From the NCBI GenBank assembly GCA_947624885.1, contig CANQMD010000001.1, forward strand, positions 1 to 51,469: DNA of 51,469 bases. Direction: 5' to 3'. The position numbers and the translations under genes are program-made. Every line of letters starts with the position of its first letter. Position 1 is the first letter of the stretch. Under the pieces are notes generated by a model. That model was not told the DNA's origin, did no database searches, and was given only the letters and a program-made list of their open reading frames with translations. Shown here piece by piece: positions 35,403 through 35,483 of the stretch. Source of the stretch: an uncultured Clostridia bacterium. Lineage in GTDB: Bacteria > Bacillota > Clostridia > Christensenellales > CAG-917.

Positions 35403-35431
35403 ATGTTACCCCCCCCCCGGTTAAATGTCAA
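35403..35431 (-). promoter_or_regulatory. Candidate sigma-A promoter with a G10 tract in the spacer, reading toward the 912-aa lipoprotein and giant protein genes
   Basis: Minus strand reads TTGACA (35426-35431), spacer TTTAACC+G10 (17 nt), TAACAT (35403-35408); an alternative CATAAT sits 3 nt further on. AT-rich DNA lies upstream. It is ~260 nt upstream of the ATG at 35142. Confidence 0.5.
35409..35418. repeat. Homopolymer tract C10 (+ strand) / G10 (- strand)
   Basis: Read directly from the sequence: gttaCCCCCCCCCCggtt. Confidence 0.95.
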
Positions 35432-35463
35432 CCTTTTGCCCTCGCTTCTCTTAATTTTAATAT

Positions 35464-35483
35464 ATTAAGATTTATTAAGATTT
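35464..35483. repeat. Perfect 10-bp tandem direct repeat (ATTAAGATTT x2) upstream of the G10 promoter
   Basis: Copies at 35464-35473 and 35474-35483. One helical turn apart, 33-52 nt upstream of the -35 on the minus strand. Confidence 0.85.

What the first reader, a model, noticed from the sequence alone, without database searches (positions are those of the whole stretch)
35403..35483. G10 homopolymer inside the -35/-10 spacer of the promoter driving the 912-aa lipoprotein / giant protein unit: a candidate slipped-strand phase-variation switch
On the minus strand the sequence reads TTGACA-TTTAACCGGGGGGGGGG-TAACATAAT. With 10 Gs the spacer to TAACAT is exactly 17 nt. A better -10 (CATAAT) lies 3 nt further on and would be optimally spaced with 7 Gs.

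Homopolymer tracts in promoter spacers are an established ON/OFF or volume-control mechanism for surface antigens; examples are Neisseria porA/opc and Mycoplasma vlp. Upstream lies AT-rich DNA with a perfect helical-phase 10-bp tandem repeat (ATTAAGATTT x2, 35464-35483), which could be an UP element or activator site.

The downstream ~255-nt leader is purine-rich and contains a GGCTGC..GCAGCC hairpin. The paralogous operon 1 has an ordinary promoter with no tract. Only this copy of the module would therefore be variable.
Basis: partly seen in the sequence, partly recalled or inferred. Interest (0 to 1): 0.7.

Follow-up and report, generated by a model that had tools for sequence, protein, structure and literature searches.

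The report
Poly-G tract inside a surface-protein promoter
A run of ten Gs sits exactly between the two recognition boxes of the predicted promoter of a large surface lipoprotein gene in an uncultured gut Clostridia bacterium; related genomes carry the same layout at other surface-protein genes, so it is most likely a slippage-prone on/off or volume switch of a known type, though no change in its length has been seen at this locus.

Summary
The sequence is as described. On the minus strand it reads TTGACA (35431-35426), TTTAACC plus G10 (a 17-nt spacer; the Gs are 35418-35409), then TAACAT (35408-35403). This is the only G/C run longer than 6 in the 51-kb window. It is the best sigma-70-like site upstream of the 912-aa lipoprotein gene.

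The main new evidence is comparative.
- In about 140 kb from five related rabbit-gut MAGs, G/C runs stop at 6 (8 cases) and reappear only as three runs of exactly 10. All three lie upstream of large secreted proteins and directly abut a TAnnnT hexamer.
- One of them (L012) has the same layout as the window, TTGACA-7 nt-G10-TATTAT, in front of an unrelated 1246-aa lipoprotein.
- A second assembly of that L012 strain ends inside the tract.
- Viral contigs also carry G-run-next-to-−10 promoters. A poly-C control does not. Orthologous copies differ in tract length (G13 against G7).

Length variation at this locus, the transcription start and any effect on expression remain untested.

Three side claims need correcting. 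The 10-bp repeats lie too far upstream for an UP element. A conserved terminator-like hairpin separates the lipoprotein gene from the giant gene. 'Operon 1' shares only the lipoprotein and a peptidase.

Verdict: a credible new member of a known kind of switch, in a new clade.

The parts
35426..35431 (-). Predicted −35 hexamer, TTGACA (perfect consensus)
   Evidence: L012 has the same hexamer at the same distance (7 nt) from its G10.
35409..35418 (-). G10 homopolymer (C10 on the plus strand). Together with TTTAACC (35425-35419) it forms the 17-nt spacer.
   Evidence: the only G/C run longer than 6 in the window; clade-wide run-length spectrum.
35403..35408 (-). Predicted −10 hexamer TAACAT, directly abutting the tract. 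The overlapping CATAAT is at 35405-35400.
   Evidence: 10 of 12 matches, spacer 17. The relatives have G10-TATTAT (L012) and G10-TATTGT (L011).
35449..35483 (-). AT-rich upstream block. It holds AAATCTTAAT x2 (35483-35464) and an overlapping inverted repeat, TCTTAAT-N8-ATTAAGA (35470-35449). It is a possible regulator site, about −53 to −87 from the inferred start.
   Evidence: palindromic self-match. Function not tested.
35143..35396 (-). Inferred 5' leader, about 254 nt and 67% purine. Predicted to be strongly structured: its 5' end pairs with the segment just upstream of the Shine-Dalgarno AGGAG (35156-35152). It contains the GGCTGC/GCAGCC hairpin (35356-35332).
   Evidence: composition; −87.6 kcal/mol, z −3.68, 0 of 200 shuffles as stable; no Rfam family. 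The transcription start is inferred, not mapped.
32404..35142 (-). 912-aa lipoprotein gene. The product has a signal peptide with lipobox L-S-A-C, four Ig-like beta-sandwich domains, and a helical C-terminal half of unknown function.
   Evidence: model; residues 36-480 at pLDDT 70-90; only generic Ig-string matches; family of 414 clusters at 50% identity; no Pfam or NCBIfam match.
32367..32401 (-). Terminator-like hairpin (GTTGCCCGC...GCGGGCGGC) followed by T6, in the 96-nt gap between the lipoprotein gene and the giant gene. Probably a partial terminator.
   Evidence: −22.1 kcal/mol, z −4.2. The stem and T-run are conserved in the 70%-identical orthologous locus L001, with a different loop. 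The simple terminator scan did not flag it.
24526..32307 (-). 2593-aa giant surface protein gene. The product has an N-terminal signal peptide, an MBG_3 domain, and a C-terminal transmembrane anchor with a basic tail. It is probably expressed by read-through from the same promoter.
   Evidence: MBG_3, E 1.4e-22; termini. The gene pair is conserved in L001. No convincing promoter of its own.

Best explanation
The G10 run is the variable part of the spacer of a sigma-70-type promoter, TTGACA-N17-TAACAT. That promoter transcribes the 912-aa surface lipoprotein gene. By read-through of a weak internal terminator it probably also transcribes the 2593-aa MBG-domain surface protein gene.

G/C runs of 9-10 or more gain or lose a base at high frequency during replication (slipped-strand mispairing). 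The population should therefore always contain cells with 16-, 17- and 18-nt spacers. G10 gives the optimal 17 nt and is the high-expression state. G9 and G11 should weaken the promoter, and G8 or fewer and G12 or more should nearly silence it. The result is heritable but reversible on/off or 'volume' control of a surface structure.

Shown: the tract, its exact position between consensus hexamers, its rarity, the surface-protein nature of the genes, and recurrence of the same layout in relatives.

Inferred: the transcription start, slippage at this locus, the effect on expression, and co-transcription of the giant gene.
For: 1. Anatomy. A perfect −35, a 17-nt spacer, and a −10 with the critical A2 and T6. 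It is the best minus-strand site upstream of the gene.

2. The tract is a strong statistical outlier, both in the window and across 139.8 kb of clade DNA: no runs of 7-9 and three of exactly 10.

3. Independent recurrence. L012 belongs to a MAG whose alpha-galactosidase is 74% identical to the window's. It has TTGACA-AATTACT-G10-TATTAT (11 of 12 matches, 17-nt spacer) about 45 nt upstream of an unrelated 1246-aa LRR_5 lipoprotein. Its flanks do not resemble the window's. L011 has G10-TATTGT upstream of a 2924-aa MBG_2 giant protein, at the position syntenic with the window's module. The two giant proteins are not homologous. A perfect TTGACA exactly 7 nt from the tract at two unrelated loci is about (4^-6)^2 by chance (my inference).

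4. The products are surface proteins, the usual targets of such switches: a lipobox, signal peptides, Ig-like and MBG domains, and a C-terminal anchor.

5. The module sits in a rearranged, variable region next to tRNA-Arg(CCT). It is absent from that site in L010 and replaced by another giant gene in L011. Its orthologue in L001 has an ordinary TTTACA-18-TAATAT promoter. The tract promoter is therefore a lineage-specific acquisition.

6. Hints of instability. An independent assembly of the L012 strain is 99.97% identical and ends inside the tract. In viral contigs the same layout is common (26 sites, 20 with 15-19-nt spacers, 13 with a TAnAAT −10). Orthologous copies there differ in tract length: G13 (17-nt spacer) against G7 (11-nt) in contigs 96.4% identical, and G12 against a 15-nt interrupted run.

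7. Precedent. Poly-G between −35 and −10, with an optimum at 17 nt, is experimentally established for T. pallidum tp0126 and N. meningitidis porA (PMC7864442). G tracts in a gut Gram-positive commensal vary in vivo (PMC9187656).

8. The predicted leader structure begins within a few nucleotides of the inferred start, which fits a transcript starting there.
Against: - No second copy of this locus was found, so no length polymorphism is shown here. The exact proteins are not retrievable. The only close strain contig (L009, 99.6% identical) stops in the repeat region 1 kb short of the tract. The metagenome DNA scan gave only chance hits.
- The −10 hexamer TAACAT matches only 4 of 6 positions, and the 254-nt leader is long. 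The promoter is predicted from consensus only.
- All three clade tracts are exactly G10, and four promoters in one 208-kb viral contig are all G9. One orthologous viral pair kept G10 despite flank substitutions. Constant length could mean a fixed element rather than a free-running switch.
- The layout strongly prefers G over C on the non-template strand: 26 sites against 6, and 20 against 0 at 15-19-nt spacing. A pure spacer-length device does not predict this.
- The L011 tract has no usable −35 at any plausible spacing.
- A conserved terminator-like hairpin lies between the two genes.
Confidence: 0.6

Rival explanations
1. Fixed promoter element. A G-run fused to the −10 hexamer is a constitutive sequence signal, for example supplying G at −14 as a partial extended −10, or acting as the site of a dedicated factor. 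Its length is kept constant by selection, and slippage is only tolerated noise, not a regulatory switch.
For: - All three clade tracts are exactly 10.
- Four promoters in one viral contig all have G9 while the total spacer is 16 or 17.
- L019 and L026 kept G10 despite flank changes.
- There is a strong G-over-C bias on the non-template strand.
Against: - From established knowledge, a pure G10 cannot avoid frequent slippage, and spacer length strongly affects sigma-70 promoters.
- Viral spacer totals spread from 14 to 19, far wider than in ordinary promoters.
- Orthologous copies do differ: G13 against G7, and G12 against 15 nt.
- No such fixed element is described in the papers searched.
Confidence: 0.17
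2. Translational switch in an upstream ORF. The tract lies at codons 5-8 of a 94-codon ORF that runs from TTG at 35431 to TAA at 35149-35147, ending 4 nt before the lipoprotein ATG. Only G7, G10 or G13 keep it open. Frameshifts would stop translation early and lower downstream expression through loss of coupling or through polarity.
For: - The frame is open only at G7, G10 and G13. Other lengths stop within 7-10 codons.
- Only 1.2% of shuffles keep that frame open to the end.
- GAGGG lies 7 nt upstream of the TTG.
- In L011 the G10 also lies inside a short ORF preceded by AGGAG.
Against: - The codon-usage score is 0.056, against 0.379 ± 0.169 for real genes in the window. GC at codon positions 1/2/3 is flat (0.57/0.52/0.54, against 0.53/0.39/0.66 in genes).
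- The sequence is T-poor, so open frames arise easily.
- The product would be an R/G/E-rich low-complexity peptide.
- The reading needs the weaker upstream promoter (9 of 12 matches).
- In L012 the tract sits 45 nt from the ATG with no such ORF.
Confidence: 0.07
3. No function. The tract is a neutral mutational accident, and the real promoter lies elsewhere or is not affected by it.
For: - The −10 is weak and no experimental data exist.
- The orthologous module in L001 works without a tract.
Against: - Run-length spectrum.
- A perfect −35 at the same offset in two unrelated loci.
- No alternative promoter of comparable quality on that strand.
Confidence: 0.12
4. Sequencing or assembly artefact, such as poly-G noise from two-colour Illumina chemistry.
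For: - The related MAGs come from one rabbit-gut project (record titles; assembly accessions).
- Poly-G is a known artefact class (own knowledge).
Against: - The tracts are internal to long contigs, with unique, functionally coherent flanks on both sides.
- A separate assembly reaches the same tract.
- Ten Gs are too few to join k-mer graphs (inference).
Confidence: 0.04

Closest known systems
Neisseria meningitidis porA promoter (poly-G between −35 and −10)
   Same: A homopolymeric G tract inside the spacer of a sigma-70 promoter of a surface protein gene. Expression is highest when the spacing is about 17 nt and falls as the tract changes (as summarised in PMC7864442).
   Different: - porA is from a Gram-negative pathogen with a demonstrated range of tract lengths.
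- Here the organism is an uncultured gut Clostridia (Christensenellales-like) commensal, and variation has not been observed.
- Here the tract directly abuts the −10.
Treponema pallidum tp0126 and tpr (E, G, J, L) poly-G promoters
   Same: The poly-G lies in or next to the promoter of putative surface proteins. For tp0126 it lies between −35 and −10, with an optimum at 17 nt. Several loci per genome share the device (PMC7864442).
   Different: - For tprE/G/J/L the tract lies just upstream of the start, and eight Gs or fewer are permissive.
- Variation there is shown by fragment-length analysis and reporters.
- The proteins are unrelated.
Bordetella pertussis fim2/fim3 (poly-C) and Mycoplasma hyorhinis vlp (poly-A) promoters
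   Same: A homopolymer in the promoter controls surface fimbriae or lipoproteins by altering spacing (own knowledge; not checked in a paper here).
   Different: - Different base: poly-C or poly-A.
- fim depends on the BvgA activator rather than on a −35.
- In the viral-contig survey the poly-C version of the present layout was essentially absent.
Bifidobacterium breve UCC2003 pilus G-tracts
   Same: A Gram-positive gut commensal. G10-G11 tracts in surface-structure loci vary in the population and shift in vivo. The authors mention further tracts in promoter spacers (PMC9187656).
   Different: The characterised tracts are intragenic frameshift switches, not promoter spacers. The organism is an actinobacterium.
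Clostridioides difficile cwpV invertible switch
   Same: Phase-variable expression of a large cell-surface protein in the class Clostridia (PMC2784873 and PMC4737114; titles and abstracts seen).
   Different: The mechanism is site-specific DNA inversion. No inverted repeats flank the promoter here.

Membership tests
Homopolymer promoter-spacer phase-variable switch (porA / tp0126 type) | An uninterrupted mononucleotide tract long enough to be hypermutable (about 8 or more G/C) | tested here: met
   A pure G10 at 35418-35409. It is the only G/C run longer than 6 in the window.
Homopolymer promoter-spacer phase-variable switch (porA / tp0126 type) | The tract lies between the −35 and −10 hexamers, so that its length sets the spacer | tested here: met
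   TTGACA-17-TAACAT by consensus scan. The same geometry occurs in L012. These are predicted hexamers only; the start site is not mapped.
Homopolymer promoter-spacer phase-variable switch (porA / tp0126 type) | Tract length varies within and between populations at the locus | not testable with these tools
   There are no reads and no second copy of the locus. The only evidence is indirect: a contig end inside the L012 tract, and G13 against G7 in orthologous viral promoters of the same layout.
Homopolymer promoter-spacer phase-variable switch (porA / tp0126 type) | Tract length changes transcription of the downstream gene | not testable with these tools
   This needs reporter fusions or matched transcript and tract data.
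Homopolymer promoter-spacer phase-variable switch (porA / tp0126 type) | The controlled gene encodes a surface-exposed or host/phage-interaction component | tested here: met
   Lipobox LSAC and Ig-like domains in the 912-aa protein. Signal peptide, MBG_3 domain and C-terminal anchor in the giant protein.
Intragenic (translational) homopolymer switch (Campylobacter / Bifidobacterium pilus type) | The tract lies inside a genuine coding sequence, so that length changes shift the frame | tested here: inconclusive
   The tract is in a 94-codon ORF that is open only at G7, G10 and G13. That ORF has a weak coding signature. The tract is 267 nt upstream of the lipoprotein ATG.
Invertible promoter (inverton; cwpV or Bacteroides type) | Inverted repeats flank the promoter segment | tested here: not met
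   No inverted repeats bracket 35380-35500. The inverted repeats found all lie at 35837-36446. The self-comparison shows only a short AT palindrome.
Known cis-regulatory RNA (riboswitch or leader) in the 5' UTR | A match to a curated RNA family | tested here: not met
   No Rfam match at E of 1 or below in 34900-36700, although the leader is predicted to be unusually stable.

The most novel reading that the evidence does not exclude
G runs of 9 or more, fused directly to the 5' side of the −10 hexamer on the non-template strand, are a distinct and recurrent promoter architecture. It would act as a built-in hypermutable rheostat, used many times per genome by this uncultured Christensenellales-like clade for its large surface proteins, and also by phages.

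This would be the first simple-sequence-repeat 'phasome' in gut Clostridia, where phase variation is otherwise known from DNA inversion. The G-over-C bias would point to a sequence-specific contribution, such as G at −14, in addition to spacer length.
Probability: 0.35. Interest if true: 0.7.

Novelty: new member of a known kind. Interest (0 to 1): 0.55.

Why it matters
If it works as proposed, an uncultured gut commensal of the class Clostridia switches or tunes a large surface lipoprotein, and probably a giant adhesin-like protein, by replication slippage. That strategy is best known from mucosal pathogens such as Neisseria, Treponema and Bordetella.

Three such tracts in about 140 kb sampled from the clade suggest many per genome. 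Surface heterogeneity in this clade may therefore be driven by repeat tracts that current inverton-focused surveys of gut phase variation would miss.

There are two practical consequences. Tract lengths in MAG consensus sequences would represent only the majority state. Assemblies would also tend to break at these sites, as seen in L015.

The survey gave a simple searchable signature, TTGACA-N-G(9 or more)-TAnnnT. Used against metagenomes with read data, it would make the question directly testable.

Tried and rejected
- **Other copies of the locus.**
  - Exact-protein look-ups for the 912-aa protein and the alpha-galactosidase found nothing.
  - The genome scan gave only a 70% orthologue with an ordinary promoter.
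  - The protein search gave three distant relatives, none with an upstream tract.
  - A search with the N-terminal fragment gave nothing.
  - The metagenome scan with tract-spanning flanks gave four chance hits.
  - The 99.6%-identical strain contig L009 stops in the 298-bp repeat.
  - L008 covers only the 3' end of the gene.
- **Homology of the two promoters.** The window and L011 upstream regions align poorly. I do not claim homology.
- **Known RNA element in the leader.** None found.
- **Tract as part of a mobile or repeated element.** No.
- **Inverton.** No flanking inverted repeats.
- **Function of the lipoprotein's C-terminal half.** No Pfam, NCBIfam or PDB sequence match. The model is poor there, and fold search returned only generic Ig strings.
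- **CATAAT with G7 as the 'true' ON state.** Rejected, because both relatives place the −10 directly against the tract.
- **Looking up the L012 lipoprotein directly.** I reached it through its cluster member instead.

Full report
**1. What is there**

On the minus strand the window reads ...gagggcaaaaggTTGACAtttaaccGGGGGGGGGGTAACATaatggcgttg....

- TTGACA occupies 35431-35426.
- The spacer, TTTAACC plus ten Gs, occupies 35425-35409 and is 17 nt long.
- TAACAT occupies 35408-35403. The overlapping CATAAT occupies 35405-35400.
- The consensus scan lists the site at 10 of 12 matches. It finds no better minus-strand site between it and the ATG at 35142.
- The AAATCTTAAT x2 repeat (35483-35464), the GGCTGC/GCAGCC hairpin (35356-35332) and the purine-rich leader (about 254 nt, 67% purine) are all real.

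**2. More than chance**

This is the only G/C run longer than 6 in 51.5 kb. C runs fall from 8552 at length 1 to 2 at length 6, and then there is one run of 10. The promoter core belongs to no repeat family in the window, and no inverted repeats flank it.

**3. What it controls**

- The first gene (35142-32404) encodes a 912-aa lipoprotein with an LSAC lipobox.
  - The AlphaFold model shows four Ig-like beta-sandwich domains (residues 36-480, pLDDT 70-90) and a poorly modelled helical C-terminal half.
  - Fold search returns only generic Ig strings.
  - There is no Pfam, NCBIfam or PDB sequence match.
  - A profile search nevertheless finds 414 clusters at 50% identity. This is a sizeable unannotated family.
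- Ninety-six nucleotides downstream starts a 2593-aa protein with a signal peptide, an MBG_3 domain and a C-terminal membrane anchor.
- In the gap lies a stable hairpin followed by T6 (−22.1 kcal/mol, z −4.2). Its stem and T-run are conserved in the 70%-identical orthologous locus L001, with a different loop.
  - I read this as a partial terminator that sets the ratio of the two products.
  - No convincing separate promoter follows it.
  - Dependence of the giant gene on the tract promoter is therefore inferred, not shown.
- The 882-aa paralogue (26% identity, E 2e-56) has an ordinary TTGCCA-17-TATAAT promoter and is followed by a C11 peptidase. A paralogous C11 peptidase (40% identity) also lies near the 912-aa module.

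**4. Search for other copies of this locus**

None was retrievable. The attempts were:

- Exact-protein look-ups.
- A genome scan.
- Two protein searches.
- A metagenome DNA scan with tract-spanning flanks.

A 99.6%-identical strain exists (Logan SRR29273033, L009), but its contig stops in the 298-bp tandem repeat about 1 kb from the tract. The only orthologue of the module (L001, from a rabbit-gut Clostridia MAG) has a tRNA cluster and a plain TTTACA-18-TAATAT promoter upstream. Tract variation at this locus therefore could not be tested.

**5. Relatives reveal a recurrent layout**

I used the neighbouring alpha-galactosidase as an anchor and fetched the syntenic regions of sibling MAGs.

- **L011** (alpha-galactosidase 80% identical). 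A different, non-homologous giant protein (2924 aa, MBG_2) diverges from the alpha-galactosidase. Its upstream region carries a G10 followed by TATTGT. This is the only G/C run of 7 or more in that 21.6-kb locus. It has no usable −35.
- **L012** (74% identical; the same MAG as L001). The only long run is again a G10. It sits in TTGACA-AATTACT-G10-TATTAT (11 of 12 matches, 17-nt spacer), about 45 nt upstream of an unrelated 1246-aa LRR_5 lipoprotein.
- **Pooled spectrum.** Over 139.8 kb of clade DNA the G/C run counts are 44889, 9594, 2004, 489, 82, 8, then 0, 0, 0, then 3 at length 10.

All three tracts read as G on the sense strand of a downstream large secreted protein, and all three abut a TAnnnT hexamer. 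The flanks are unrelated, so this is a repeated design and not a copied cassette.

The relatives also settle which −10 matters. It is the hexamer touching the tract, so G10 is the optimally spaced state.

**6. Hints of instability**

- A second assembly of the L012 strain (ERZ27249481; 99.97% identical; 3x coverage) ends inside the tract: the contig begins GGGGTATTAT.... This fits either length heterogeneity or trouble sequencing poly-G. It does not give a length.
- In viral contigs, TTGACA-N(0-10)-G(9 or more)-TAnnnT occurs 26 times. Twenty of these have total spacers of 15-19 nt and thirteen have a TAnAAT −10.
- The same search with C9 in place of G9 gave six sites. All had spacers of 9-14 nt and none had TAnAAT.
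- Orthologous copies differ in two of three families.
  - G13 (17-nt spacer) against G7 (11-nt) in contigs 96.4% identical from one metagenome.
  - G12 (two contigs) against a 15-nt interrupted run.
  - G10 in both members of the third pair.
- The spread of spacer totals (14-19) is wider than in ordinary promoters (own knowledge). That is what drifting tracts would produce.

**7. Mechanism**

The best-supported reading is a porA/tp0126-type switch. Slipped-strand mispairing changes the G count, and so the −35/−10 spacing, and so transcription of the lipoprotein gene and, through read-through, the giant gene. Both precedents are experimentally established (PMC7864442). G tracts are known to vary in vivo in a Gram-positive gut commensal (PMC9187656).

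The module lies in a rearranged region next to tRNA-Arg(CCT) that differs between sibling genomes. That fits a variable surface-protein locus.

My confidence of 0.6 is roughly the product of four terms: tract real, promoter assignment right, slippage at a relevant rate, and an effect of ±1 nt on the promoter.

**8. Rivals**

- **(a) Fixed element.**
  - For: the lengths are uniform, with G10 three times in the clade and G9 four times in one 208-kb viral contig. The strong G-over-C bias suggests a sequence-specific role, such as G at −14, beyond spacing.
  - Against: this does not remove the physical instability of the run.
  - It leaves open whether switching is the selected function.
- **(b) Upstream-ORF switch.**
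  - For: a 94-codon ORF from TTG 35431 to TAA 35147 is open only at G7, G10 and G13. Only 1.2% of shuffles keep that frame open.
  - Against: its codon score (0.056, against 0.379 ± 0.169 for genes) and flat GC1/2/3 argue against coding. L012 has no counterpart.
- **(c) No function, and (d) artefact.** Both are disfavoured by the run spectrum, the repeated geometry, and the unique, coherent flanks on long contigs.

**9.

- The 10-bp repeats lie about 68-87 nt upstream of the inferred start, beyond UP-element range. With the overlapping inverted repeat TCTTAAT-N8-ATTAAGA (35470-35449) they could be a regulator site. This is untested.
- 'Unit' and 'paralogous operon' need the qualifications given in section 3.

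**10. Novelty and score**

The mechanism is textbook, but I found no report of it in Clostridia or Christensenellales. Phase variation of surface proteins in that class is known from DNA inversion (cwpV).

I class this as a new member of a known kind. The added interest comes from recurrence within the clade and the wider G-run-next-to-−10 architecture. Interest: 0.55.

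Noticed in passing
window 35590-36446: The 1.37-kb gap between the lipoprotein gene and the alpha-galactosidase gene is packed with repeats.
- A 298-bp tandem duplication (35921-36141 and 36219-36439, 97% identical).
- Three copies of TGTCATTCTGAGCGYAGTCGAA..ATCCCC (35595, 35736, 36148; a weak fourth near 5915).
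- Three hairpins of the form GGGGTCCCCA(C/A)AAAATTAC..GTGATTTTGTGGGG.

The same small elements occur in L011 (8619-8957), so this is a clade-wide REP/MITE-like family. The duplication is where the L009 assembly breaks.
   Followed up: partly
L012 7128-7156 (GCA_947625225.1, CANQNQ010000001.1): A second example of the same promoter layout: TTGACA-AATTACT-G10-TATTAT upstream of a 1246-aa LRR_5/Flg_new lipoprotein. An independent assembly of this strain (L015, ERZ27249481 NODE_4122) ends inside the tract.
   Followed up: yes
L011 9061-9070 (GCA_947628855.1, CANRBM010000002.1): A G10-TATTGT lies about 640 nt upstream of a 2924-aa MBG_2 giant protein, at the site syntenic with the window's module. 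It has no recognisable −35. It lies inside a short ORF preceded by AGGAG, about 125 nt downstream of a TTGATA-17-TATTAT site. How this tract would act is unexplained.
   Followed up: partly
window 32367-32401; L001 about 5815-5855: A conserved hairpin plus T-run lies between the lipoprotein gene and the giant gene. The whole 96-nt gap is more conserved than the flanking coding sequence. It looks like an internal attenuating terminator.
   Followed up: partly
window 35130-35398 (minus strand): The inferred leader RNA folds far better than shuffles (−87.6 kcal/mol, z −3.68). A 13-bp helix closes its 5' end onto the segment just upstream of the Shine-Dalgarno sequence. There is no Rfam match.
   Followed up: partly
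window 35147-35431 (minus strand): A 94-codon ORF starts at the TTG of the −35 box and runs through the tract, stopping 4 nt before the lipoprotein ATG. It is open only at G7, G10 and G13. Its coding signature is weak.
   Followed up: yes
window 19885-36500: The module lies in a variable region next to tRNA-Arg(CCT) (19885-19961), which includes an AT-rich kilobase (20001-21000, GC 0.39). Relative to L010 the alpha-galactosidase/UDG block and the YchF block are rearranged. L010 has no giant gene at this site, and L011 has a different one.
   Followed up: partly
window 459-2459 and 21036-23069: Two paralogous C11 (clostripain-family) lipoprotein peptidases, 40% identical, each lie near one of the two paralogous ~900-aa lipoproteins. 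In the first case the genes overlap by 7 nt, which suggests a functional pairing.
   Followed up: no
L021, L034, L037 (IMGVR_UViG_3300015214_000001, 208 kb): One large viral contig carries four promoters of the form TTGACA-7 or 8 nt-G9-TA(A/G)AAT. A G-run next to the −10 may be a promoter class in that phage.
   Followed up: no
L016 2469-2497 and L048 4915-4950 (metagenome 3300045988): Orthologous viral promoters with identical flanks carry G13 (17-nt spacer, perfect TTGACA and TATAAT) in one contig and G7 (11-nt spacer) in the other. The contigs are 96.4% identical.
   Followed up: partly
window 35482-35511 and 35666-35694 (plus strand): Two good plus-strand promoter-like sites face away from the lipoprotein gene, into the repeat region: TTTACA-18-TATCAT with TG, and TTGACA-17-GATAAT. 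The first overlaps the AAATCTTAAT repeats. What they transcribe, if anything, is unknown.
   Followed up: no
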